Shown in pieces: positions 1-9,916 of a stretch of 64,000 nucleotides of DNA. Each line of letters opens with the position of its first letter. The stretch's first letter is position 1. The notes beneath the pieces were generated by a model. It made no database searches, was not told the DNA's origin, and saw nothing but the letters and a program-made list of their open reading frames with translations. This DNA comes from Alphaproteobacteria bacterium. Its GTDB lineage: Bacteria > Pseudomonadota > Alphaproteobacteria > SP197. Both the position numbers and the translations under genes were made by a program. Location: assembly GCA_965207785.1 (NCBI GenBank), contig CBDBNO010000010.1, positions 202,108 through 266,107 on the forward strand, read 5' to 3'.

Positions 1-1373
1 TGCGCAAGATAATCGCGAAGATCGCGCAACAAGGCTGTTTCGGCACCTCCGGCGACGGCAAGGAAATCCTCGGTATCGGCAAGAGCCTTGGGGAGCGTTA
101 GCCAGGGAACTGCACTTTCGGCAGCCATGAGGCGTTGCGCCACGCCGATTTCATATGCGTGGCGGGCTGGTTCCGGCATAACTTCGGAAGCTTCGGTGTG
201 GATGAGTCTCTCCCCTAAGATTTGAAGGCGGGCATCAGACAATCCTTGCAGAATCGCCGGGCGTGCGGACCATTCGGCCAAATGGAACGCGGCCATAGCT
301 GTCTGATCGTCAATTCCCGTAAAACCGTCATAGATTTGCTCTTCGACGTGCCGGGACGGTTTCTTCGGCTCGCGGGTTGCGAGGAAAGCGGCAATGAGGC
401 GTTGGACAAGCACGTTGTCGCGGCGGACGCGCGCAGCGCGGTCTCTCAGATCCACAATGTCCGGCACCATAGATTGTATGTGCTCGGGCGCATCATCATA
501 CAAGGCAACGCACGGACAGGCGTTGGCACGCAAAACTCGCACGGGCTTCGGTCTAACGGAAAGCCGTTCAACCAATTGGTGGTCAGGGAGAACGGCCAAC
601 TCTTCGGGATCTACGGCAAGGTTGAACACAAACAGCTGCGAACTGTTGTCCGGATTGGGTCCAAGGTTCGTAACCATCCAGGAGTACACGTTGCCGAAAA
701 AGATGTCGGTGAGGGAAAAAAACTCTTCCTGCTCCACAAAATCCAATACGGCGGCTTTCTGGGAGAATCGGACAAAGTTCGACCAGTGGCCCTCAGCTCG
801 ATCGGCTAGGATGCGGCATACATGGATCGTCGCCTCCACGTCACCCATTGCATCATGGGCAGCAAATTGGCTGTAGCCGTTGATCGGAGCAAGCATGTCA
901 AGCTTGAAGGTAGCCCGACCACTCTTGTCGATCGGCAACGAAAGAACACCTGGTTGGAACAAGTTAATCGCCTTCATGATTCGCAGACTGTCCGAACGGG
1001 AATTGCCGTTTGTATTGGTGAGGTATGGGGCGTGCAGAGTCTTGAATAGTGCCTGGCGTAGAAGATGCTCGTCGAAGGCCATGGAGTTGTGGCCGACGAA
1101 GATCGCCGGCGACCATTCATCGAGCTTGGCCTTGATTGCGCGCACCATCTGGTAATGGCTGGGCAGGTCCGGGGCGATGAGCTCGTCAATGGTTATGGCT
1201 GTAACGCGCATGGCACCAGGCGACGGTACGACGTATGGGAGCAGTCGGCAGCGAATTTCAAATCGTTCCAATTCGCGCAACTCGTGATCAGTCCTGATCG
1301 CGCCGAACTGGAGAATTTGGTCGAAAGCGGTGTTGGTTCCTGTGGTTTCCGTGTCGTAGAATACGAAACTCAA
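1..1373 (-). CDS. sbcB: Exodeoxyribonuclease I (SbcB-like DEDDh 3'-5' exonuclease); partial, C-terminal end lies beyond window start
   Basis: Hand translation of the minus strand from TTG at 1373 gives LSFVFYDTETTGTNTAFDQILQFGAIRTD...NSRSDSL...HAHDAMGDVEAT, matching ExoI motifs (DxE, HAHDAM). AGGAG lies 8 nt upstream. This ORF is not in the supplied track because it starts with TTG and runs off the window. Confidence 0.75.
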   Translation of the reverse strand, partial: MSFVFYDTETTGTNTAFDQILQFGAIRTDHELRELERFEIRCRLLPYVVPSPGAMRVTAITIDELIAPDLPSHYQMVRAIKAKLDEWSPAIFVGHNSMAFDEHLLRQALFKTLHAPYLTNTNGNSRSDSLRIMKAINLFQPGVLSLPIDKSGRATFKLDMLAPINGYSQFAAHDAMGDVEATIHVCRILADRAEGHWSNFVRFSQKAAVLDFVEQEEFFSLTDIFFGNVYSWMVTNLGPNPDNSSQLFVFNLAVDPEELAVLPDHQLVERLSVRPKPVRVLRANACPCVALYDDAPEHIQSMVPDIVDLRDRAARVRRDNVLVQRLIAAFLATREPKKPSRHVEEQIYDGFTGIDDQTAMAAFHLAEWSARPAILQGLSDARLQILGERLIHTEASEVMPEPARHAYEIGVAQRLMAAESAVPWLTLPKALADTEDFLAVAGGAETALLRDLRDYLA

Positions 1374-1391
1374 GCTGGTTTCTCCTAGATG

Positions 1392-1925
1392 TCACGCGAA
1401 CAGGTTTCCAAGCCGAAAACGCATGGCGGACGTACTGACCTTGAAGCTTCTGGCCAACGCGGTCACCGCGCTTTCGTCGTCGATGTCGAACGGCTCGTTG
1501 CCCAGCGCCTTCGCAAGCATGGCTTTCGGCATCAATAGTTCCGCAGCAAAGAGGTTGGCTTCGATCTCCATCACGTCAACTCCTTCCGTCGATACCGAAT
1601 CGCGCATCAGCATCGGAGATGCCAAGGCTTTATCGACGTGCACCTCCTTGGTGATTTGCGACTTGTGAAGGGTCAAGTGGCCGCATTCATGGGCGATGGT
1701 GAAGCGCTGGCGGTTGGGATGGTGAAGAGCATTGACGCCGATTATCGGTTTGCCGTCCTTCAAGTAGATCATCCCGGATAGTTCGTCATCAAGCGGCGAA
1801 AATCTCAGTGTGGCGCCGAGTGTTCTTACAATCCGTTCGACAGGAACTGGCGGAGCCATCACTTCATGGTCGTCAAGAAGGGACTGTGCCCGGATCAAGA
1901 TAACCTTTCTTCGTCTTGGGTTCAT
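1392..1925 (-). CDS. ImmA/IrrE-family zinc metallopeptidase (COG2856, CapP-like)
   Basis: 177 aa with the HEXXH motif (IAHECGHLTL) in the family-typical position. Its ATG overlaps the stop of the upstream XRE gene (ATGA at 1925-1928). Confidence 0.85.
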   Translation of the reverse strand: MNPRRRKVILIRAQSLLDDHEVMAPPVPVERIVRTLGATLRFSPLDDELSGMIYLKDGKPIIGVNALHHPNRQRFTIAHECGHLTLHKSQITKEVHVDKALASPMLMRDSVSTEGVDVMEIEANLFAAELLMPKAMLAKALGNEPFDIDDESAVTALARSFKVSTSAMRFRLGNLFA

Positions 1926-2299
1926 CAGTCGGTCTCCGGTGTTTCTTGGTTATCGGTGTGCAGGGCATCACCTATCAGACGCAACACGTCCTGCCGTTGC
2001 GTTTCGCTGAGTCCCTCGGCGGGAAGGGGCAGCTCAGCAGGCTCGTCATCACGGGGGGGCGGCAGTGGCATTAGAACACCCGGGGAATCGAGGTCGAGTG
2101 CGGTGGCGATGGCATAAAGGTGATGCAGCAGGACTTGCTGACGGCCGGCTTCAATGTTGGCGAGTGACGCGCGCGAGATGCCGATTTCGGCAGCGAGCTG
2201 GGCTTGGGTGCGGGGAGCGCCCGCACGAAAGTGCCTGATGTGCCGGCCCACTTCCCTATAGATGTCACTTGGCCTCATGTGTGGATAGTACCGGAACAC
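1925..2299 (-). CDS. XRE-family HTH transcriptional regulator (CapH-like repressor) with acidic C-terminal tail
   Basis: HTH_3-like segment TQAQLAAEIGISRASLANIEAGRQ. Translationally coupled to the downstream ImmA gene. An alternative ATG start lies at 2278. Confidence 0.8.
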   Translation of the reverse strand: MFRYYPHMRPSDIYREVGRHIRHFRAGAPRTQAQLAAEIGISRASLANIEAGRQQVLLHHLYAIATALDLDSPGVLMPLPPPRDDEPAELPLPAEGLSETQRQDVLRLIGDALHTDNQETPETD

Positions 2300-2330
2300 A
2301 CAAGAGATGCCAAGCTCGCAAACAGCATAT

Positions 2331-2345
2331 GTTTGTTTAACAAAC
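2331..2345. promoter_or_regulatory. Inverted repeat GTTTG-N5-CAAAC in an AT-rich divergent intergenic region; candidate operator for the XRE regulator
   Basis: gtttgtttaacaaac read directly. It sits in the only AT-rich stretch (2320-2370) between the divergent XRE gene and the Ubl operon. A TTGACG -35-like hexamer is at 2365-2370. Confidence 0.35.
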
Positions 2346-2452
2346 GTGTAAGATGTTTTTTTTCTTGACGGGCCAGTTCATCGGTGCGATGCTACGGATT
2401 GAACCGGGCACAGAGGCGCCCGACCACCTGAACGGAAATGAGGTGTTGAACT

Positions 2453-3178
2453 ATGGATGAACGCAACCTGGTCGTAGAGGACCGCAACCATCCGCGGGAT
2501 GGTGTGGAACGAGAAAAGGGCCCGTCCGGCACCTTCACAATCAATGTGGGCAACGACGCTCTCGAGTTCCAGGGTGTAGACATGAAAGATCCGGTGCCCA
2601 CGGGCCGTCAGATTATCGAGGCGGCCAAGCTAGGCCCAGTCGAGGCGTTCCTGCTTTTCGCCGTCTCTCATGACCGCCGGCTCAGTGAAGTCAAACTTGA
2701 TGAGACCGTCGATATCCGCGGAGACGCCGAAAAGCTCTTCCTTGTCTTCAAGAACGACCGGTCTTGGCGCGGGCTCATCGACGGCAAGCGGTTCGAGTGG
2801 GGCGCGGAGGCAATCAACGGCCGCGTGCTGAAGTGGCTGGCTGGAGTCGATCCCGCAACGCACGGCGTTTGGCTCGAACTGCGAGACGAACCCGACCGGC
2901 TGATCGGCGACGACGAACAGGTGTCGCTGTCGACTGCAGGTGTCGAACGCTTTCGGACCGACCCGCTGTTTCGCGTGTGTGTCGAGGACGAATTCCATCC
3001 GTGGACTCGGCCGACCATCACGACTGAGGAGATTGCCGCGTTGGGCGGTTGGGATATCTCGCAGGGCGTTATCGAAGTCGACCCTGACCAGAACGAGCGC
3101 ACACTTTCGCCGGAAGAGGTCATCAAGCTGCGACCCGATGTGTCGTACGGCAAGAAGCTTCGTTTCAAGAGGGGATAG
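2453..3178 (+). CDS. Multi-ubiquitin (tandem beta-grasp) ubiquitin-like protein, BilA-like; C-terminus ...LRFKRG
   Basis: 241 aa. Residue pattern resembles the Multiubiquitin family that travels with prokaryotic E1/E2/JAB genes. It ends in a single Gly before the stop. AGGTG RBS 9 nt upstream. First gene of a 4-gene operon. Confidence 0.65.
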   Translation: MDERNLVVEDRNHPRDGVEREKGPSGTFTINVGNDALEFQGVDMKDPVPTGRQIIEAAKLGPVEAFLLFAVSHDRRLSEVKLDETVDIRGDAEKLFLVFKNDRSWRGLIDGKRFEWGAEAINGRVLKWLAGVDPATHGVWLELRDEPDRLIGDDEQVSLSTAGVERFRTDPLFRVCVEDEFHPWTRPTITTEEIAALGGWDISQGVIEVDPDQNERTLSPEEVIKLRPDVSYGKKLRFKRG

Positions 3179-3180
3179 CT

Positions 3181-3570
3181 ATGAACTCGCGGATCGAGTC
3201 CGAGTTGGCACTTCTCCGGCTGCACTACTCCAGGGTGGACTATCTGGCGGAGAACGCGATGCACTGGTTTAGGGTTGAGATGCTCAAGACGCCCAAGAAA
3301 TGGGCGCCGGCAGAAATCCCCGTCGTGTTCGCCGTCACCGAAGGCCACCCTGGCGCGCAGCCTTACGGCTTCTTTGTGCCCGGGGAGTTGAACTTGGATG
3401 GCAATCCGCCCTCCGAGCATGGTGCGCCCCACCCCCCTCCGTTCGAGGGCATCTGGCGGTTTCTGTCGTGGCAGCCGGAAGGATGGCACCCAACAGGCGA
3501 TGTGCGCTCGGGCTCGAATCTGTGGGGCTGGGTACGGACATTCATGCACCGGTTGAGGGAAGGAGTCTGA
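3181..3570 (+). CDS. E2-like (UBC-fold) protein, BilB position; contains no cysteine
   Basis: 129 aa in the operon position of the E2. Has a HPG...GFFV segment resembling the E2 HPN...GxIC region, but there is not a single Cys in the ORF. Starts 2 nt after the Ubl stop. Confidence 0.5.
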   Translation: MNSRIESELALLRLHYSRVDYLAENAMHWFRVEMLKTPKKWAPAEIPVVFAVTEGHPGAQPYGFFVPGELNLDGNPPSEHGAPHPPPFEGIWRFLSWQPEGWHPTGDVRSGSNLWGWVRTFMHRLREGV

Positions 3571-3574
3571 AGGG

Positions 3575-4093
3575 ATGAACACCCTCATGTTAGACAAAGA
3601 CCTTCAGCGCCGCCTCTGGTCCCATCTCCTGCGCAAGGACTCGATGCAAGAACAGGCCGCTTTCCTTTTCTGCATGACGGAACCCGCAGATTGCGGGGTG
3701 ACGTTCGTGGCGGTTGATCAGGCCTTTCTGGGACCAGACGACTTCGTCGCCCAGCGTACTGACTACCTGGAACTGACGAATGAGACCCGGATCAGGCTGA
3801 TTAAGCGAGCGCATGTCCTAGGAACCTCGCTGGCCGAGCTTCACTCGCACCCTGGCCCTTGGCCGGCAGCTTTTTCTCTATCCGACCGGATTGGATTGAG
3901 AGAAACCGTACCGCATATGCGGTGGCGCTTGAAAAGGCGGCCCTACCTGGCCGTGGTGGTGGCGCCGTCAGGCTTCGACGCACTGGTTTGGTCGCGGGAC
4001 GCCAGGATTCCCGAGCCTCTGGCCGGGATCGACATTGGCGGCGAGCTCATGACGCCGACCAACTTCTCACTCGGAGGATGGGACGATGACTGA
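3575..4093 (+). CDS. JAB/MPN+ (JAMM) metallo-isopeptidase, BilC-like
   Basis: 172 aa with an upstream Glu and ELHSHPGPWPAAFSLSD, i.e. the HxH...S..D JAMM motif. GGAAGGAG RBS. Confidence 0.8.
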   Translation: MNTLMLDKDLQRRLWSHLLRKDSMQEQAAFLFCMTEPADCGVTFVAVDQAFLGPDDFVAQRTDYLELTNETRIRLIKRAHVLGTSLAELHSHPGPWPAAFSLSDRIGLRETVPHMRWRLKRRPYLAVVVAPSGFDALVWSRDARIPEPLAGIDIGGELMTPTNFSLGGWDDD

Positions 4094-4943
4094 GGATCGC
4101 TTTGATCGGAATGAACAGTTGTTTGGCAAAGAGGGCCAAGCTCGCTTGCGGCGTACCCGTGTGGCCGTCATGGGGGCAGGAGGGTTGGGCAGTCACGTTA
4201 TTGCGCAGGTTGCACTGCTCGGGGTGGGCGACATAGCGGCGGTTGACCGACAATGCGTCGCACGTTCAGATCGCAACCGCTATCTCGGCGTGTGGGACAA
4301 GGATCCGATTCCCGGGTCGCCAAAGGTGGCGCTCGCGAAACGCCATATCCACTTGATTGATCCCAGGATTACGGTCACACCGATTAAGGACGACATACTC
4401 TCGGCGCCCAGCCTCGGCGCGATTCAAAAGGCCGATTTCGTTTTCGGATGTGTGGACAATGACGGGGTCCGATTCTTCATCAACGAGGCATGTCTTGCCT
4501 ACGAGAAGCCGCTGATCGATCTGGCTTCCGACGTGCCTGAACCAGGGGTGTTCGGCGGCCACGTTGCGATCGTCTCTGGTAGTCTTGGCTGCATGCACTG
4601 CCTCGACCTTCTTGATCCCGACGAGGTGCGCCGATACCTCTCACCGCCCGAATTAGTTGAAAACGAAGACGCTGTCTACGGGATCAAGGCGAGCGCGCTT
4701 GCGGAGACCGGCCCTTCGGTTGTATCGGTGAATGGGGCAGTCGCCTCACTTGGCGTGACTGCTTTCATGGCACTAGCGACAGGAATGCACCTCCCTTACG
4801 CATTCCTGACCTATCGTGGAGACCGAGGTACAGTCACGCGCAAGACGATCAAGGCTGCCGAAGACTGCTACTATTGCTCCGTGGTGCGCGGTCAGGGTGA
4901 GTGGGCGAATCTTGAGCGGTACTTTCGAAAGGCCGCTGCTTGA
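4086..4943 (+). CDS. ThiF/MoeB-family E1-like ubiquitin-activating enzyme, BilD-like
   Basis: 285 aa. Rossmann motif VAVMGAGGLGSHV. Two Cys pairs (GCMHC, CYYC) form a MoeB-like Zn site. Overlaps the JAB gene by 8 nt with a GGAGGA RBS. Confidence 0.85.
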   Translation: MTEDRFDRNEQLFGKEGQARLRRTRVAVMGAGGLGSHVIAQVALLGVGDIAAVDRQCVARSDRNRYLGVWDKDPIPGSPKVALAKRHIHLIDPRITVTPIKDDILSAPSLGAIQKADFVFGCVDNDGVRFFINEACLAYEKPLIDLASDVPEPGVFGGHVAIVSGSLGCMHCLDLLDPDEVRRYLSPPELVENEDAVYGIKASALAETGPSVVSVNGAVASLGVTAFMALATGMHLPYAFLTYRGDRGTVTRKTIKAAEDCYYCSVVRGQGEWANLERYFRKAAA

Positions 4944-4945
4944 AC

Positions 4946-5007
4946 ATGCATGCCGATCATATTGAGCACTGCGCCGTACATCCTACGGACTTTCGGCATG
5001 CATTGTG
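4946..5007. terminator. Long imperfect hairpin immediately after the E1 stop (possible operon terminator / island boundary structure)
   Basis: catgcatgccga (4946-4957) pairs with tcggcatgcat (4997-5007). A nested ccgta/tacgg stem is inside. No clean U-tract follows. Confidence 0.3.
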
Positions 5008-5186
5008 AGTTCCCTGTCTGTCTTGCCAACTGACCGCCTACCACGTCTTCCAATCCACGTCCTCGAACAGATGCGCACGCGTGTACTGCCGCCCATTGAT
5101 ATTGGCCTGTGAAACAGAGAATTCCGCTACTTGTGGAGTATGGCCTGGGCACTTCCGCTAAGAGGAACCGAACCGCTGACGCGACG

Positions 5187-5456
5187 TCAAGACTGTCCCG
5201 GCATTCGGAGCTCGAGGTGAATAGAGTCCACGGTAGCTAGTGAGATCAGCTTCACGGCCTCAGCCACAATGTATCCGTCGCTCGCCTCGATCACCAAGCA
5301 ATCGAGCCCTGCCCGAGCGTAGCGAGGGCATAGATCCAGGATCACGTGGTGCTCCCAACCGGAAGGACGACCACTCCAAATTGTCGGATCGTGATTGCGA
5401 AGTTTATCGGCTTGAAGTAGTCGGGTACGCCGTGCCATTGCCTGACTGCGGACCAC
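5187..5456 (-). CDS. Hypothetical small ORF / possible gene remnant
   Basis: 89-aa ORF starting at GTG 10 nt after the proW stop. Its GC3 (about 58%) is far lower than the flanking genes and there is no recognisable motif. Confidence 0.2.
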   Translation of the reverse strand: MVRSQAMARRTRLLQADKLRNHDPTIWSGRPSGWEHHVILDLCPRYARAGLDCLVIEASDGYIVAEAVKLISLATVDSIHLELRMPGQS

Positions 5457-5466
5457 GAGATCTTCG

Positions 5467-7548
5467 TCAGGTGGAAAGGCCGAGGTCGCGTTTCTTGCCG
5501 GCGGCCCAGGCCTGGATGATGCGGTCGGCGATCATGGCCATGAGGGCCATGGATCCGCCGGCGATGACGCCCTGGCCAAACTTGGCGTTGGTGAGGCTGT
5601 CGTAGACCCATTGGCCGAGACCCTTGGTGCCGACGAGGGCGGCGATGACGAGCATGGCGAGGGCGAACATCACCACCTGGTTGAGGCCCACCATGATCTC
5701 CGGGATCGCGAGGGGGAGCTTGACCTTCCAGAGGACCTGGCGCTCGGTGCAGCCCATCATGCGGGCGGCCTCGATGGCCACGGGATCGACGTGGCGGATG
5801 CCGTGCTCGGTGTAGCGGATCGCCGGCACGATGGCGTACATGATGATCGCCAGGAGCGCCGAGAAATCCCCCACCAGGAACACCATCACCACGGGGATGA
5901 GGAAGACGAAGAGCGGCATGGTCTGCAGGGTGTCGTTGATCGGCCGCAGGACGGCGGAGACACGGTCGTTCTGCGCCGCCCAGATTCCTAAGGCCCCGCC
6001 GGCCACGAAGCAGATGATGACCGAGGTGGCGGTGAGGTAGAACGACAGCATGGCCCGTGGCCAGGCGCCGCTCACCAGCATGAAGAGCATGCCGAGGAAG
6101 GCGAACAGCGCAACCCTCCAGCCGCCGACCTGAAAGGCGATGAGCGTGACGGCGGCCATGAAGACGGGCCACGGCGTGCCGGACGAACCGTAGTAGAAGA
6201 GGATGCCCAGGAGCGCCGTGGCGACGGCGGCGCGCCAGCCGCCCAGCCTTGCCGCCAGGGTGCCGATGGCCACCAGGATCATCCAGTAGATGACGGAAGC
6301 CAGCGCCGTCATCTCGAACCCCCACGAGGTGGGCCGCGCAATCCTTTCGAGGCCCGCCTTCATGGGCAGCATGAAGAAATAGAGCGTGTAGGTCTTGATG
6401 GCGTCCGTGGTGTCGAAGAAGTTGCGGGTGAACCAGGAGACCGCCGTGTTGAGGCCCTCGGCCGGGTAGATGATCCAGGCATCGGGATAGGCGTTGAACA
6501 CCGGCACCGCCCATGCGAGCAGCGAGCCGGCGGCGACCGCTGCGACCATGGAGGTCAGCATGGGATGGCGGGCGATGTAGTTCCCTGAACGATGCACGTG
6601 GATCTCGCCCGAGCGTTCGGCGAAGCCGCGGCTGATGCGGTCCATCATCATGGCGATCAGCACGATGACCAGTCCGGCCAGCAGGCTCTGGCCGGTCTGG
6701 GCCTTGCGCATCGTGGAGAGCACTTCCCAGCCGATATCGGCGAAGCCGCCGATGATGGCGGCGATGATGACCATGGCGAGTGCCGCCATGATGGTCTGGT
6801 TGACGCCGATCATGATCGTGTGCATGGCGGCCGGAATGCGCACCAGGAAGAGAAGCTGGAAACCGTTGCAGCCGGACATCTGGCCGCTCTCGATGACGTT
6901 GTCGGGAACCCGCTGCAGACCCAGCATGAGATTGCGGACCATGGGCGGGCTGGCGTAGACCGCCGAGGCCACCATGCCGACCACCGGCCCGATGCCGAAG
7001 AGAATCAGGATGGGAATGAGATAGGCGAACGTCGGCACCGTCTGCATGACGTCGAGCGTCGGTTCGATGACGCGCCGGGCCCAGCGGAACTGGAAGCCGA
7101 GCAGTCCCATGACGAACCCGATCATGATCGAAAGCGGCACGGACATGCAGACCAGCGCCAGGGTCGACATGCTCTCGTCCCAGTATCCGACGACCACCAT
7201 GTAGAAGAGCGAGGCCGTGCAGAAGGCGGCGAGACGCCAGCCCTTGGCGGCGTAGGCGATGATCGCCACGATGGCGATCGTGACCGGCCACGGCGACGTC
7301 TGCAGCACGATCTGGATCCCCTCCATCGGCCATTCGAGGGCATCGGAAATCAACCGGAAGAGCGGCTTGAAGTTGGCCGTGAACCAGTCCATCAGATACT
7401 CGAGGCCGGCCTCGATGGGGAGAATCCAGCCCTTCGGATACTTGACGAGCCACTTCGCGTCGTCACGCAGGATGAGGCAAACAATCGCCAGGACGCCGAA
7501 GACCAGCCAGACCAAGAGCCTGGGCGGCAGCAGGCGCGCCGGGTTCAC
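5467..7548 (-). CDS. Glycine betaine/proline-type ABC transporter permease, duplicated (fused double ProW-like) transmembrane protein
   Basis: 693 aa, very hydrophobic, with two BPD_transp_1-like halves. ATGA overlap with the downstream ATPase gene. Confidence 0.85.
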   Translation of the reverse strand: MNPARLLPPRLLVWLVFGVLAIVCLILRDDAKWLVKYPKGWILPIEAGLEYLMDWFTANFKPLFRLISDALEWPMEGIQIVLQTSPWPVTIAIVAIIAYAAKGWRLAAFCTASLFYMVVVGYWDESMSTLALVCMSVPLSIMIGFVMGLLGFQFRWARRVIEPTLDVMQTVPTFAYLIPILILFGIGPVVGMVASAVYASPPMVRNLMLGLQRVPDNVIESGQMSGCNGFQLLFLVRIPAAMHTIMIGVNQTIMAALAMVIIAAIIGGFADIGWEVLSTMRKAQTGQSLLAGLVIVLIAMMMDRISRGFAERSGEIHVHRSGNYIARHPMLTSMVAAVAAGSLLAWAVPVFNAYPDAWIIYPAEGLNTAVSWFTRNFFDTTDAIKTYTLYFFMLPMKAGLERIARPTSWGFEMTALASVIYWMILVAIGTLAARLGGWRAAVATALLGILFYYGSSGTPWPVFMAAVTLIAFQVGGWRVALFAFLGMLFMLVSGAWPRAMLSFYLTATSVIICFVAGGALGIWAAQNDRVSAVLRPINDTLQTMPLFVFLIPVVMVFLVGDFSALLAIIMYAIVPAIRYTEHGIRHVDPVAIEAARMMGCTERQVLWKVKLPLAIPEIMVGLNQVVMFALAMLVIAALVGTKGLGQWVYDSLTNAKFGQGVIAGGSMALMAMIADRIIQAWAAGKKRDLGLST

Positions 7549-8612
7549 TCCGCATCCTCCCCGGCATGGCTGTCGGCGAGAGAGCTCAACACCATCTGGG
7601 CAGTGATGCTGCCAACGATGGCGCCCTCCCCGTTCTTCACGGCGATGACGTCCGAACCTTCGGCGAAGCGCGGCATGATCTCTTCGAGCGTGGCATGTTC
7701 GTCGACAACGTCATCGGTGGCGGGATGGGAAGCAGCAGCCGTGGCGATGTCGCCGGCGGTGATGACCTTCACCCGCGGCACGTCCTGGGTGAACTCGCTG
7801 ACATAGTCGTCGGCCGGCTGCATCACCACCTCGGCGGGGGTGCCGATCTGCACGATCCGGCCATCCTTCATGATGGCGATCCTGTCCGCCAGGCGCAGGG
7901 CCTCGAGGAAGTCGTGGGTGATGAAGACGATGGTCTTGTGGAGAAGTTGCTGCAGACGCAGGAACTCGTCCTGCATCTGCCGGCGGATCAGCGGATCGAG
8001 AGCGGAGAAGGGCTCGTCAAGGAACCACAGCTCCGGTTCGACAGCCAGGCTCCTGGCGATGCCGACACGCTGCTGCTGGCCGCCCGACAGCTCGCGCGGA
8101 TAGCTCGTCTCGCGCCCTCCCAGTCCGACGAGCTCGATCATTTCCATCGCCCGGGCGCGCCTTTCCTCCTTGGCGATTCCCTGGATCTGCAGGGGGAACG
8201 CCACGTTCTCGAGCACCGACAGATGCGGTAGGAGACCGAAGTTCTGGAACACCATGCCCATCTTGTGGCGGCGGATGTCGATCAGCTTGTCCCTGGAGAC
8301 CTGCAGGAGATCCTCGCCATCGAGAATCACCTCCCCTGCGGTCGGCTCGACGAGCCGGGAGAGACAGCGCACGATCGTCGATTTCCCGGAACCCGACAGG
8401 CCCATGATGACGAAGATCTCGCCGATGTGGACGTCGAACGTGACATCGCAGGCGGCACCGATGTGACCTGACTCGTTGATGGACCCGATCAGGCTTGTGG
8501 GATCGGCCACATCGCCATGGCCGTCCGTGAAGAACCTGTCGGCGTCGGGACCGTACACCTTCCAGACATGCCTGCACGTCAGCTTGACTTCCTGATCATC
8601 GGTTCCCGTCAT
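7545..8612 (-). CDS. proV: Glycine betaine/proline ABC transporter ATP-binding protein (ProV-like) with C-terminal CBS region
   Basis: Walker A (GLSGSGKST), ABC signature (LSGGQQQRV) and Walker B (LDEPFSALD). Confidence 0.9.
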   Translation of the reverse strand: MTGTDDQEVKLTCRHVWKVYGPDADRFFTDGHGDVADPTSLIGSINESGHIGAACDVTFDVHIGEIFVIMGLSGSGKSTIVRCLSRLVEPTAGEVILDGEDLLQVSRDKLIDIRRHKMGMVFQNFGLLPHLSVLENVAFPLQIQGIAKEERRARAMEMIELVGLGGRETSYPRELSGGQQQRVGIARSLAVEPELWFLDEPFSALDPLIRRQMQDEFLRLQQLLHKTIVFITHDFLEALRLADRIAIMKDGRIVQIGTPAEVVMQPADDYVSEFTQDVPRVKVITAGDIATAAASHPATDDVVDEHATLEEIMPRFAEGSDVIAVKNGEGAIVGSITAQMVLSSLADSHAGEDAE

Positions 8613-8782
8613 GATCTCCTCGCATGGGCCAAGCCTCGCTCCCGGACTGTCCCACTCCCCCCAGGACGGGACAATCTATCCGGTTGGTTCACAAAACGCC
8701 ATGATCCGGGCCGACGGTCTCGACCGGCCCTCGAAACAAGTGCACTATGGGACGCCATCTTGAAGGAGTCTGAAAGCAGGCC

Positions 8783-9916
8783 ATGCTCAGGACCGAGGAC
8801 ATCGAAGGCCTTGACCGCCCGACGGCTCAAGCCCGCGGCCTGCCGGGACATGCCTACACATGCGAGGACTTCGCCCGCCACGAGTACGCCCGGCTCTTCG
8901 CCAGGACCTGGACATTTGCCGGGTATGCCCACGAGGTGCCGGATGCCGGATCCGTCATGCCGAGGACACTGGCCGGCGTGCCCCTCCTCTTCACGCGCAC
9001 CCGTGACGGCGAGGTCAGGTGCTTCCACAACATCTGCACCCATCGGGGTACACAGCTCGTCGACGAGGCTGCCAGTGGTCTTGCCACCCTGCGCTGCCGC
9101 TATCACGGCTGGACCTACGATCTCGATGGCGCGCTGCGCCTGACACCCCACTGGGGCGGTCACAACCAGGGCCAGGGCGAAGGCTTCGAGAAGTCCTGCC
9201 ATGGTCTCAAGCCCGTTCGCATGGCGCGCTGGCACGACTGGATCTTCGTCAACGTCGATGGCCTCGCCGAACCCTTTGCCGACTACGCCGCCCCCTTCAT
9301 GGCCCATGTCGCCGAGTACGACCTCGACGACGCCACCTGGGCGCTGACGCTGCGCTACGACATTGCCGGCAACTGGAAGCTGGTGGCCGAGAACTACCTC
9401 GAGACGCTCCATCTTAACTTCGTGCACACCGTGCTCGCCGAGGCGGCTCCCTTCGAGCAGCACGAGGTCATCGCCGAGGACGCCTGTCTGGGCACCATCA
9501 TCAACGTCGGTCTGCCAGCCACCTGGACCAAGGCCGAGTCCCTTCCCCGCTGGCCGGGTATTGATCACGCCAACCGGACGGCCAAGAACCTGGCGCTCTT
9601 TCCCAACTTCAAGTTCGTGATCGGCCCCGACCATGCCTGCTCCATGGTGGAGTTTCCCGATGGCGCCGGCCAGTCCCACCAGCGCTGGGACTTCTACTTC
9701 CACGGCGACGGGGCCACGGCGCCGCGTTACGCCGAGTCAAGGAAGGCGATCATCGAGTTCTTCGACACCACCAATGTCGAGGACTTCAATGCCGTGGAGG
9801 CGGTGCACAAAGGCCACATGTCCCCGGCCATGCAGGGCGCCCGCTTCAACGGCATCTGGGAGGGGGGCGTGCACCACTTCCAGAAACTCGTTGCCCACTA
9901 CATGAGCGAACCATGA
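8783..9916 (+). CDS. Rieske [2Fe-2S] non-heme iron oxygenase alpha subunit (betaine/carnitine-type monooxygenase-like)
   Basis: The pair CTHRG...CRYHGW gives the CxH-x17-CxxH Rieske ligands. 377 aa. Adjacent to the betaine transporter genes. Confidence 0.8.
   Translation: MLRTEDIEGLDRPTAQARGLPGHAYTCEDFARHEYARLFARTWTFAGYAHEVPDAGSVMPRTLAGVPLLFTRTRDGEVRCFHNICTHRGTQLVDEAASGLATLRCRYHGWTYDLDGALRLTPHWGGHNQGQGEGFEKSCHGLKPVRMARWHDWIFVNVDGLAEPFADYAAPFMAHVAEYDLDDATWALTLRYDIAGNWKLVAENYLETLHLNFVHTVLAEAAPFEQHEVIAEDACLGTIINVGLPATWTKAESLPRWPGIDHANRTAKNLALFPNFKFVIGPDHACSMVEFPDGAGQSHQRWDFYFHGDGATAPRYAESRKAIIEFFDTTNVEDFNAVEAVHKGHMSPAMQGARFNGIWEGGVHHFQKLVAHYMSEP

What the first reader, a model, noticed from the sequence alone, without database searches (positions are those of the whole stretch)
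1392..2452. Divergent XRE-HTH / ImmA-IrrE peptidase pair with palindromic operator next to the Ubl operon (CapH/CapP-like damage-sensing control), co-oriented with sbcB
The XRE repressor and HEXXH metallopeptidase are translationally coupled (ATGA) and transcribed away from the Ubl operon across a 150-bp AT-rich region. That region carries GTTTG-N5-CAAAC and a TTGACG hexamer. This is the arrangement of CapH/CapP-type modules that derepress CBASS and other defence operons after DNA damage. The same transcript direction continues 18 nt later into exonuclease I (sbcB), which is unusual and may couple the regulator to a DNA-end-processing enzyme.
Basis: partly seen in the sequence, partly recalled or inferred. 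Interest (0 to 1): 0.6.

Follow-up and report, generated by a model that had tools for sequence, protein, structure and literature searches.

The report
Damage-switch regulator cassette with its own exonuclease
A repressor and its cleaving protease sit back-to-back with a ubiquitin-like defence operon, which is a known kind of DNA-damage switch, but here and in dozens of relatives the pair always carries a third gene, an exonuclease I-like enzyme, that nobody seems to have described as part of the switch.

Summary
An XRE repressor (1925-2278), an M78/ImmA peptidase (1392-1925) and an ExoI-like gene (1373 to <1) run leftward. They are divergent from a multi-ubiquitin/E2-like/JAB/E1 operon (2453-4943) across a lower-GC region that carries GTTTG-N5-CAAAC and TTGACG. 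There are three small corrections. The stop/start overlap is TGATG, not ATGA. The XRE start is ATG 2278 (leaderless), not 2299. The palindrome is the centre of a four-half-site array (2319-2359) lying between two back-to-back -35 boxes.

The CapH/CapP-like reading is supported, but that association with ubiquitin-like operons is already published (Lau 2022; Chambers 2023; Ye 2024).

The new part is "sbcB". It is not a housekeeping neighbour. It follows the peptidase in 21 of 28 informative loci with peptidase identity of at least 50%, against 4 of 105 below that, and in 7 of 7 plasmid records. The divergent partner operon meanwhile changes: multi-Ubl, Bil II, CBASS II and III, TIR/SIR2-HerA, Dcm/Vsr.

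The peptidase is a short, GAF-less form, so it lacks the ssDNA groove defined for CapP. The exonuclease keeps all five catalytic residues.

My best reading is a portable three-gene damage-responsive regulator in which the exonuclease tunes the ssDNA signal. I could not establish its exact role.

The parts
1..1373 (-). It is the third gene of the cassette, and its 3' end is cut off by the window start.
   Evidence: TTG start at 1373 with an AGGAGA RBS, 18 nt after the peptidase stop. Pfam RNase_T plus Exonuc_X-T_C. E. coli ExoI structures match at 1e-35 over residues 2-382. NCBIfam exodeoxyribonuclease I scores 185.5 bits, below the 260-bit cutoff. PADLOC 'RTasSbcB' matches at 5.7e-110 over its full length. 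DEDDh residues D7, E9, D101, H173 and D178 are invariant in 26 of 26 cassette homologues.
1392..1925 (-). Short M78 (ImmA/IrrE/CapP-type) Zn-metallopeptidase of 177 aa, with an HECGH motif.
   Evidence: Pfam Peptidase_M78 9e-25. PADLOC capP 1.6e-31, covering only profile positions 8-150 of 242. The PDB profile hit to CapP 7T5T covers residues 84-174 of 291. The AF2 model has pLDDT 83.5, and its top fold hits are PprI, CapP and IrrE. There is no GAF domain.
1925..2278 (-). XRE-family HTH repressor of 117 aa, with the start revised to ATG 2278. It has a Pro-rich linker and a conserved C-terminal helix.
   Evidence: Pfam HTH_31 and HTH_3. PADLOC capH 3e-8. Homologues are called at 117 aa. The C-terminal motif LP-LP..GLSxxQRxxVxRL is conserved.
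2285..2313 (-). Promoter of the XRE-peptidase-exonuclease operon: -35 TTGGCA (2313-2308), a 17-nt spacer, and -10 TACTAT (2290-2285). The ATG lies 6 nt downstream, so the mRNA is leaderless.
   Evidence: It is the only sigma-70-like match on the minus strand in 1200-2700. The same geometry, with the start codon 34-39 nt after the first base of the -35 box, is found in 34 of 36 non-redundant relatives (alignment A2).
2319..2359 (.). Operator array of four half-sites: CAAAC 2319-2323, GTTTG 2331-2335, CAAAC 2341-2345 and GTTTT 2355-2359. It fills the space between the two -35 boxes.
   Evidence: Read directly from the sequence. GTTTG-N5-CAAAC-N6/7-GTTTG is conserved in the close relatives whatever the partner operon. 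A perfect inverted repeat lies within 32 nt upstream of the -35 box in 27 of 36 relatives.
2331..2345 (.). Its centre (2338) lies midway between the two -35 hexamers.
   Evidence: 1 match against 0.04 expected by chance. The N5 spacing is kept in all 7 close-clade sequences of A2.
2365..2393 (+). Putative promoter of the Ubl operon: -35 TTGACG (2365-2370), a 17-nt spacer ending in TGC (extended -10), and -10 GATGCT (2388-2393).
   Evidence: TTGAC(C/G)-N17-(A/G)AT(A/G)(C/T)T, with the spacer tail CATC(C/G)GTGC, is conserved among the window, L001 and L164. A reverse GTCAA lies 48-59 nt from the XRE -35 box in 25 of 36 relatives. This promoter is inferred and has not been mapped.
2453..4943 (+). 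The regulated partner operon: Multi_ubiq protein (2453-3178), a 129-aa protein with no Pfam match and no cysteine in the E2 position (3181-3570), a JAB peptidase (3575-4093) and a single-domain E1/ThiF (4086-4943).
   Evidence: Pfam Multi_ubiq 1.6e-31, a weak Prok-JAB hit and ThiF 7e-33. The same four genes are found next to the cassette in L001-L004, L011 and L164.

Best explanation
This is a portable three-gene, damage-responsive transcriptional switch of the CapH/CapP (ImmR/ImmA, DdrO/IrrE) kind. In this window it controls the neighbouring ubiquitin-like operon.

Proposed mechanism:
1. The XRE protein binds as a dimer of dimers to four GTTTG/CAAAC half-sites (2319-2359). These fill the roughly 50 bp between two back-to-back -35 boxes.
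2. Binding holds down both promoters: its own leaderless operon to the left and the Ubl operon to the right.
3. A stress signal activates the short M78 peptidase, which cuts the repressor in or near its conserved C-terminal helix. The repressor then loses oligomerisation and DNA binding, and both promoters fire.
4. The ExoI-like enzyme is made from the same transcript and is catalytically competent. It degrades 3'-ended single-stranded DNA. Its most likely role is to set the threshold of the ssDNA signal and to reset the switch, acting as a negative feedback that keeps a potentially toxic operon off during ordinary repair.

What is shown: the gene identities, the operon layout, conservation of the promoter and operator architecture, and the tight linkage of the exonuclease to this peptidase clade across changing partner operons.

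What is inferred: repression, cleavage, the nature of the signal, and the role of the exonuclease.
For: Identity of the proteins:
- The peptidase hits capP and the HTH protein hits capH in PADLOC.
- By profile search the closest solved structure is CapP, and by fold search PprI/IrrE then CapP.

The cassette is portable:
- The same XRE-peptidase-exonuclease trio, with peptidase identity of 50-86%, sits divergent from a multi-Ubl operon (L001-4, L011, L164).
- It also sits divergent from Bil type II (L165), CBASS II with Cap2 and patatin (L167) and CBASS III with TRIP13, HORMA and SMODS (L012).
- Other partners are TIR/SIR2/HerA (L016), Dcm+Vsr (L017), and DUF7665/JAB/E1 operons (L009, L092, L094, L098).

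The regulatory DNA travels with the cassette:
- GTCAA-(half-sites)-TTGACA-N17-(-10)-ATG is conserved whatever the partner operon.
- CapH likewise binds a conserved site upstream of the -35 box.

The exonuclease is linked to this peptidase clade:
- It follows the peptidase in 21 of 28 loci at 50% identity or more, against 4 of 105 below that.
- In PLSDB the 7 records with the exonuclease are exactly the 7 with a peptidase of at least 50% identity.
- The gap between peptidase and exonuclease is -4 to +39 nt in 36 loci.
- No terminator-like or promoter-like site lies between them in the window.

Support for a threshold role:
- The DEDDh catalytic residues are invariant in 26 of 26 homologues.
- There is a precedent for ExoI setting a defence threshold: host SbcB degrades DRT10 cDNA and suppresses toxicity.
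Against: - No experiment supports any functional step.
- The peptidase lacks the GAF domain. In CapP and IrrE that domain forms half of the ssDNA groove and part of the repressor docking site. ssDNA may therefore not be the signal here, which would weaken the threshold idea.
- Short peptidases of the same family work without any exonuclease gene (L005, L032 and about 100 loci below 50% identity). The exonuclease is therefore an add-on and not a requirement.
- The XRE protein shows no sequence match to CapH in the PDB at E <= 0.01. Its nearest solved relatives are R-M controller proteins.
- The operator half-sites do not overlap the -35 or -10 hexamers, so repression has to act through contacts upstream of the promoters.
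- The counts include some near-identical loci (L001-3, L165/166).
Confidence: 0.6

Rival explanations
1. The ExoI-like protein is the sensor. The peptidase has lost the GAF domain, so the exonuclease binds ssDNA (or 3' ends, or SSB-coated DNA) and activates the peptidase through a protein-protein contact. It would then supply in trans the missing wall of the ssDNA groove.
For: - The peptidase is 177 aa with no GAF domain.
- GAF residues are needed for ssDNA binding and CapH cleavage in CapP.
- The exonuclease co-occurs strictly with one peptidase clade.
- The full ExoI architecture, including the SH3-like and C-terminal domains, is retained.
Against: - The whole short-peptidase family is GAF-less, and most members have no exonuclease.
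- The conserved loop between HExxH and ExEAN is not specific to the exonuclease-linked clade.
- A pure sensor would not need invariant catalytic residues.
- No interaction was modelled.
Confidence: 0.22
2. The ExoI-like enzyme is an induced effector or accessory defence nuclease. It is placed under the damage-responsive promoter and attacks phage ssDNA or replication intermediates, independently of regulation.
For: - The catalytic site is intact.
- PADLOC lists this family as a defence-associated protein, RTasSbcB.
- In one relative (L090) an HD-domain protein occupies the same slot after the peptidase, 10 nt downstream. This suggests a swappable cargo position.
Against: - The partner operons (CBASS II and III, Bil II) are complete systems with their own effectors.
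- The exonuclease tracks the peptidase clade and not any effector type.
- No trio was seen without a divergent operon where the upstream sequence was available.
Confidence: 0.12
3. The pair is an ImmR/ImmA-type immunity module of an integrative or conjugative element or a prophage. It would control element excision and would merely lie next to the Ubl operon.
For: - The peptidase has the short, GAF-less ImmA architecture.
- One homologous cassette lies beside Tra genes and integrases (L164).
- The cassette has lower GC than its flank.
Against: - The divergent neighbour is a defence-type operon in every locus examined, never int/xis.
- The partner's -35 box sits at a fixed distance from the operators.
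- There are no close relatives in 50,697 phage records or in IMG/VR.
Confidence: 0.04
4. The sbcB adjacency is incidental: a housekeeping exonuclease I gene that happens to lie downstream.
For: The protein is a full-length ExoI homologue.
Against: - It scores below the NCBIfam ExoI equivalog cutoff.
- The linkage is conserved across several phyla and on plasmids.
- The context beyond the exonuclease differs between otherwise identical cassettes (L001 against L002 and L003).
Confidence: 0.02

Closest known systems
CapH/CapP (E. coli MS115-1 and Thauera sp. K11 CBASS regulators; Lau et al. 2022; Calloji et al. 2026 preprint)
   Same: - An XRE HTH gene is followed by an M78 Zn-peptidase gene.
- The pair is divergent from a defence operon and shares its promoter region.
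- The conserved repressor site lies upstream of the -35 box.
- Association with ubiquitin-like operons is already reported: 6a and 6e systems, 15% of Bil II operons and 31% of Bub operons.
   Different: - The peptidase here is 177 aa, against 291 aa in CapP. It lacks the GAF domain and the cysteine of the switch loop.
- The repressor has no detectable CapH-specific similarity beyond the HTH domain.
- A third, co-transcribed ExoI-like gene is present. None of the papers I searched mentions it.
ImmR/ImmA of Bacillus ICEBs1 and phage phi105
   Same: The metallopeptidase is short and GAF-less, and it cleaves an adjacent HTH repressor after DNA damage. Architecturally this is the closest match to the 177-aa protein (background).
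   Different: ImmR/ImmA controls excision and transfer genes of a mobile element. Here the regulated neighbour is a defence-type operon, there is an added exonuclease, and no close phage relatives were found.
DdrO/IrrE (PprI) of Deinococcus
   Same: These are the best fold matches (8SLN, 3DTI). The logic is the same: a protease cleaves the C-terminal dimerisation region of an XRE repressor.
   Different: IrrE has HTH and GAF domains and binds ssDNA between the peptidase and GAF domains. It is also a chromosomal global regulator, not a mobile cassette.
Exonuclease I (SbcB) of E. coli, including its role as a threshold setter for DRT10/UG17
   Same: The protein is DEDDh exonuclease plus SH3-like plus C-terminal domain, aligned over about 380 residues. 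Host SbcB removes ssDNA products and so keeps a defence system quiet.
   Different: Identity is about 28-30%, and the score is below the equivalog cutoff. The gene is encoded inside a mobile regulatory cassette rather than as a housekeeping gene.

Membership tests
CapH/CapP regulator pair | Adjacent genes for an XRE-type HTH protein and an M78 HExxH Zn-metallopeptidase, with the HTH gene first | tested here: met
   Pfam HTH_31/HTH_3 and Peptidase_M78; PADLOC capH 3e-8 and capP 1.6e-31; 1-nt stop/start overlap.
CapH/CapP regulator pair | Encoded upstream of, and on the opposite strand to, an immune operon, sharing its promoter region | tested here: met
   The operon 2453-4943 is divergent across 174 bp. 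The same holds in every homologous locus that has upstream sequence.
CapH/CapP regulator pair | CapP has three domains (peptidase, HTH, GAF), with an ssDNA groove between the peptidase and GAF domains | tested here: not met
   The protein is 177 aa. It covers capP profile positions 8-150 of 242 and CapP residues 84-174 of 291. The model shows a peptidase domain plus a three-helix tail only. Fold hits cover 0.39-0.47 of the targets.
CapH/CapP regulator pair | Cysteine-switch loop over the active site (present in about one third of CapP proteins) | tested here: not met
   There is no cysteine between HExxH and ExEAN. That position is occupied by a different conserved loop (H-V-D-K...L-x-R-D-x-x-S, pLDDT below 50).
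CapH/CapP regulator pair | Repressor binding site conserved upstream of the -35 box of the regulated promoter | tested here: met
   The half-site array 2319-2359 lies between the two -35 boxes and is conserved across relatives. Binding itself was not tested.
CapH/CapP regulator pair | CapH C-terminal oligomerisation domain containing the CapP cleavage site (F82|R83) | tested here: inconclusive
   A conserved C-terminal amphipathic helix (SETQRQDVLRLIG) follows a Pro-rich linker. No homology to the CapH CTD is detectable, and the Arg is not invariant.
CapH/CapP regulator pair | Peptidase activated by ssDNA or DNA damage, and operon derepressed | not testable with these tools
   This needs biochemistry and reporter assays.
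ImmR/ImmA (mobile-element immunity) | Short single-module ImmA peptidase (about 170 aa, no GAF domain) | tested here: met
   177 aa here, and family members are 164-193 aa.
ImmR/ImmA (mobile-element immunity) | Controls divergent excision or transfer genes of an ICE or prophage | tested here: not met
   The partner operons are Ubl/E1, CBASS, TIR/SIR2 and R-M types. There are no close phage relatives.
Exodeoxyribonuclease I (SbcB) | DEDDh catalytic residues plus the ExoI SH3-like and C-terminal domains | tested here: met
   D7, E9, D101, H173 and D178 are invariant. Pfam RNase_T plus Exonuc_X-T_C. ExoI_SH3 and ExoI_C are found on homologues. The alignment to 1FXX/4JRP covers residues 2-382.
Exodeoxyribonuclease I (SbcB) | Orthology to housekeeping sbcB (NCBIfam equivalog cutoff) | tested here: not met
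   185.5 bits against a cutoff of 260. True sbcB genes on plasmids are only 27-30% identical, while cassette copies are 37-43%. PGAP names them 'exonuclease domain-containing protein'.
Bil (type I/II) and Bub (6E/DUF6527) operons, for the regulated neighbour | Bil: a multidomain E1 (IAD-AAD-CYS) and a Cys-bearing E2. Bub: a DUF6527 protein and fused Ubl-E2, JAB-E1 or E2-E1 proteins | tested here: not met
   The E1 is 285 aa with a single ThiF domain and no BilD_N (compare L165). The 129-aa protein has no Pfam hit at E <= 10 and no cysteine. There is no DUF6527 and there are no fusions. The gene order Ubl-E2 position-JAB-E1 matches Bil.

The most novel reading that the evidence does not exclude
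The ExoI-like protein is an integral, trans-acting sensor or gatekeeper of a three-component switch. In this clade the CapP-type peptidase has shed its GAF domain, and ssDNA recognition, or discrimination of phage ssDNA from repair ssDNA through free 3' ends or SSB, has passed to a dedicated exonuclease that physically controls the peptidase. This would be a new way for immune operons to read DNA damage.
Probability: 0.22. Interest if true: 0.7.

Novelty: new variant of a known kind. Interest (0 to 1): 0.5.

Why it matters
CapH/CapP is one of only three known families of regulators that switch bacterial immune operons on after DNA damage, and its sensing mechanism has just been tied to a peptidase-GAF groove.

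This locus belongs to a widespread clade found in several phyla and on rhizobial plasmids. The clade lacks that groove and instead always carries an active-looking exonuclease I paralogue, while swapping freely between Ubl, Bil, CBASS, TIR/SIR2 and R-M operons.

That gives a clean and testable question: does a dedicated ssDNA exonuclease set the trigger threshold of immune-operon expression, or act as the sensor? It also shows that annotation pipelines and published surveys, which count only 'CapH+CapP', miss a conserved component.

The basic finding that such a regulator sits next to a Ubl operon is not new.

Tried and rejected
- **Exact-sequence look-ups.** Look-ups of the window peptidase and of its best homologue found nothing. 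I obtained context from other homologues instead.
- **Reverse transcriptase to the left.** I suspected one because of the PADLOC name RTasSbcB. Homologous cassettes end at the exonuclease and have unrelated flanks. The only RVT gene seen (L166) lies beyond several transposases.
- **Phage origin.** The IMG/VR scan with the exonuclease gave no match. The phage database gave only 33-35% ImmA hits and host sbcB fragments at Stx-phage ends.
- **A peptidase feature specific to the exonuclease-linked clade.** The conserved H-V-D-K...R-D loop and the roughly 175-aa length are shared by relatives without the exonuclease. There is therefore no co-variation signal.
- **CapH-specific similarity of the repressor.** None was found in the PDB at E <= 0.01.
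- **Classifying the 129-aa 'E2'.** It has no Pfam hit even at E <= 10.
- **Supplementary tables.** Those of the Bub paper are not held in the library.
- **Host identification.** A megablast of the flank against plasmids gave only about 76% identity to Shinella and Paracoccus ABC-transporter genes.
- **The repeat finder.** At minimum length 8 it missed the 7-nt-arm palindrome. I located it by eye and by pattern search.
Full report
**What is in the window**

Three genes run leftward on the minus strand.
- An XRE-family HTH gene ends at 1925. Its stop overlaps the start of the next gene by one base (TGATG).
- A 177-aa HExxH peptidase gene occupies 1392-1925.
- After an 18-nt gap with an AGGAGA ribosome-binding site, an exonuclease I-like gene starts at TTG 1373 and leaves the window.

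A four-gene operon runs rightward from 2453: Multi_ubiq, a 129-aa protein, JAB, and a ThiF-type E1.

The spacer has 48% GC against 63% for the window. It contains GTTTGTTTAACAAAC at 2331-2345 and TTGACG at 2365-2370. The palindrome and the overlapping CAAAC-N7-GTTTG (2319-2335) are each unique in the window, at 0.04 and 0.07 expected by chance.

**Start of the repressor, and the promoters**

Homologues of the HTH protein are called at 117 aa. The only sigma-70-like site on the minus strand is TTGGCA-N17-TACTAT (2313-2285), which places the transcription start on ATG 2278.

In 34 of 36 non-redundant relatives the start codon lies 34-39 nt after the first base of a TTGAC(A/G) hexamer. This is the geometry of a leaderless mRNA (alignment A2).

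On the other side, TTGACG-N17-GATGCT has a TGC extended -10 element. It is conserved as TTGACC-N17-AATATT in L001 and TTGACC-N17-AATGTT in L164. A reverse GTCAA lies 48-59 nt from the repressor's -35 box in 25 of 36 relatives.

**Operator**

Four half-sites lie between the two -35 boxes: CAAAC 2319, GTTTG 2331, CAAAC 2341 and GTTTT 2355.

In the close clade the pattern GTTTG-N5-CAAAC-N6/7-GTTTG is kept. This holds whether the partner operon is the multi-Ubl type, Bil II or CBASS II. More distant relatives have a strong palindrome of the ACAAACATATGTTTGT kind, or variants built on CACAC or CGCA cores. It abuts the -35 box, and a weaker second site lies beyond it.

CapH of E. coli MS115-1 also binds a conserved 22-bp site upstream of the -35 box and forms tetramers. 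This fits an array of two dimer sites.

**Identity of the pair**

The peptidase matches PADLOC capP at 1.6e-31, and the HTH protein matches capH at 3e-8. A profile of the peptidase family finds CapP 7T5T first in the PDB, followed by IrrE/PprI. An AlphaFold model (pLDDT 83.5) matches PprI-ssDNA, CapP and IrrE by fold.

The matches cover only the peptidase domain and the small helical domain. CapP and IrrE are 240-291 aa and carry a C-terminal GAF domain. The window protein and all of its relatives are 164-193 aa.

This matters for two reasons. ssDNA binds CapP and IrrE in the groove between the peptidase and GAF domains. The GAF domain also docks the repressor's HTH domain. The cysteine of the CapP switch loop is absent as well. 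In its place the family has a strictly conserved loop of low model confidence (H-V-D-K...L-x-R-D-x-x-S).

The repressor has an HTH domain, a Pro-rich linker and a conserved C-terminal amphipathic helix. It shows no CapH-specific similarity.

**The 'sbcB' gene**

It is a full-length ExoI homologue (1e-35 to E. coli ExoI, residues 2-382; Pfam RNase_T plus Exonuc_X-T_C). It nevertheless scores below the NCBIfam equivalog cutoff (185.5 against 260 bits). It matches PADLOC's defence-associated RTasSbcB model over its full length (5.7e-110).

I fetched 163 loci encoding relatives of the peptidase and located the seven window proteins in them by tblastn.
- An ExoI-like ORF lies directly downstream on the same strand in 21 of 28 informative loci whose peptidase is at least 50% identical to the window's.
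- The same is true in only 4 of 105 loci below 50%.
- Some loci are near-duplicates (L001-3).

An independent check in PLSDB gave the same answer. The seven plasmid records with an ExoI-like gene at 37% identity or more are exactly the seven with a peptidase at 50% or more, and the genes are adjacent. The remaining ExoI hits are true sbcB at 27-30%. RefSeq annotates the trio as HTH regulator, ImmA/IrrE metallo-endopeptidase and exonuclease domain-containing protein.

The gap between peptidase and exonuclease is -4 to +39 nt in 36 loci, and all five DEDDh residues are invariant in 26 of 26. Beyond the exonuclease the context differs even between otherwise identical cassettes (L001 against L002 and L003). 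The cassette therefore ends there, and no reverse transcriptase follows.

**The partner operon changes**

With the trio held nearly constant, the divergent operon varies as follows.

| Partner operon | Loci |
|---|---|
| Window-type multi-Ubl operon | L001-4, L011, L164 |
| Bil type II (BilD_N+ThiF E1) | L165, peptidase 73% identical |
| CBASS type II (E2_A-ThiF-JAB fusion plus patatin) | L167, 68% identical |
| CBASS type III (TRIP13-like AAA, bacHORMA_2, SMODS, DUF6602) | L012 |
| A DncV-like cyclase | L025 |
| TIR, SIR2 and HerA | L016 |
| Dcm plus Vsr | L017 |
| DUF7665/JAB/E1 and DUF6791-ThiF operons | L009, L092, L094, L098, L086 |

About two thirds of the partners contain an E1-type enzyme. 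This is the behaviour expected of a portable regulator rather than of a component of any one system.

The cassette occurs in Pseudomonadota, Acidobacteriota and Gemmatimonadota MAGs and on conjugative rhizobial plasmids. It has lower GC than its flank here.

**What is already known**

Lau et al. (2022) reported CapH/CapP-like pairs next to 6a and 6e ubiquitin-like operons, the latter encoding a multi-beta-grasp protein and an E1. Chambers et al. found them at 15% of Bil type II operons, in divergent orientation. Ye et al. found them at 31% of 544 Bub operons.

None of these papers mentions an exonuclease. The same is true of the 2026 CapP mechanism preprint and the CapK/CapS paper. Full-text searches for CapP or CapH with exonuclease or SbcB, and for ImmA with DEDDh, returned nothing relevant. 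The library is not exhaustive.

**Mechanism**

The layout supports a repressor-protease switch that controls both divergent promoters.

For the exonuclease I favour a threshold or reset role. It is co-transcribed from the autoregulated promoter. It looks catalytically active. It would remove 3'-ended ssDNA, which is the ligand established for the CapP, CapW and CapK regulators. Host SbcB does something comparable for DRT10.

The main rival is that the exonuclease replaces the missing GAF domain as the ssDNA sensor. That is attractive, but it is weakened because most GAF-less relatives manage without an exonuclease.

An effector role is less likely because the partner systems are complete in themselves. 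One relative does have an HD-domain protein in the same slot (L090), which leaves room for a 'cargo' interpretation.

A mobile-element immunity role and a chance adjacency are both contradicted by the comparative data.

**Verdict**

- The peptidase is a short ImmA-like variant of CapP.
- The exonuclease is a conserved and, as far as I could find, undescribed third member of this regulator clade.
- Novelty: new variant of a known kind. Interest is moderate (0.5).

Noticed in passing
window 2453-4943: The Ubl operon fits neither Bil nor Bub. The Multi_ubiq protein ends ...LRFKRG with the glycine already terminal. The 129-aa protein in the E2 position has no cysteine and no Pfam hit even at E <= 10. 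The E1 is a 285-aa single ThiF domain, and there is no DUF6527 protein. A cysteine-free E2-position protein recalls the oxyester chemistry reported for Bub.
   Followed up: partly
window ~2400-2452 (and L001, L164): The 5' leader of the Ubl operon is strongly conserved among close relatives (CCGGGCnnAGAGGCGCCnGAnCACCTGAAC...GAGGT). It could form a GGGC/GCCC hairpin just upstream of the ribosome-binding site.
   Followed up: no
L011 855-6940; L018 947-6786; L169 1-3458: In several relatives the Ubl/E1 operon is followed on the same strand by a PD-(D/E)XK protein of about 900 aa and a UvrD-like protein of about 1100 aa (an AddAB-like pair). In L004 an AAA+ ATPase and an S8 peptidase follow instead.
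   Followed up: no
L090 341-2350: In one relative (peptidase 56% identical) the gene that follows the peptidase by 10 nt is a 473-aa HD-domain protein rather than the ExoI-like gene. From its sequence motifs it looks dGTPase-like. This suggests that the third slot can be exchanged.
   Followed up: partly
window 1392-1925, residues 94-115 of the peptidase: A strictly conserved loop (H96, D98, K99, P104-R108) lies between the HExxH helix and the ExEAN helix, and it is predicted with pLDDT below 50. It occupies the position of the CapP cysteine-switch loop, which makes it a candidate autoinhibitory element of a different chemistry. It is shared by relatives with and without the exonuclease.
   Followed up: partly
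window 1-5400 versus 5400-9000: The cassette plus the Ubl operon have 54-61% GC. GC rises to 63-67% from about 5400, where a betaine/proline ABC transporter operon begins. This is consistent with a horizontally acquired island whose left end lies outside the window.
   Followed up: partly
L001-L003 4763-6483: In a homologous locus the cassette lies next to a DarT-Macro (DarTG) pair and a YagJ/ResIII gene, which is a typical defence island.
   Followed up: no
trio loci generally (L009, L092, L094, L098, L086, L019, L165, L167, L168, L169): About two thirds of the partner operons of the exonuclease-bearing cassette contain an E1/ThiF enzyme of some kind, in at least five different architectures. 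This may be a real preference or may reflect sampling.
   Followed up: partly
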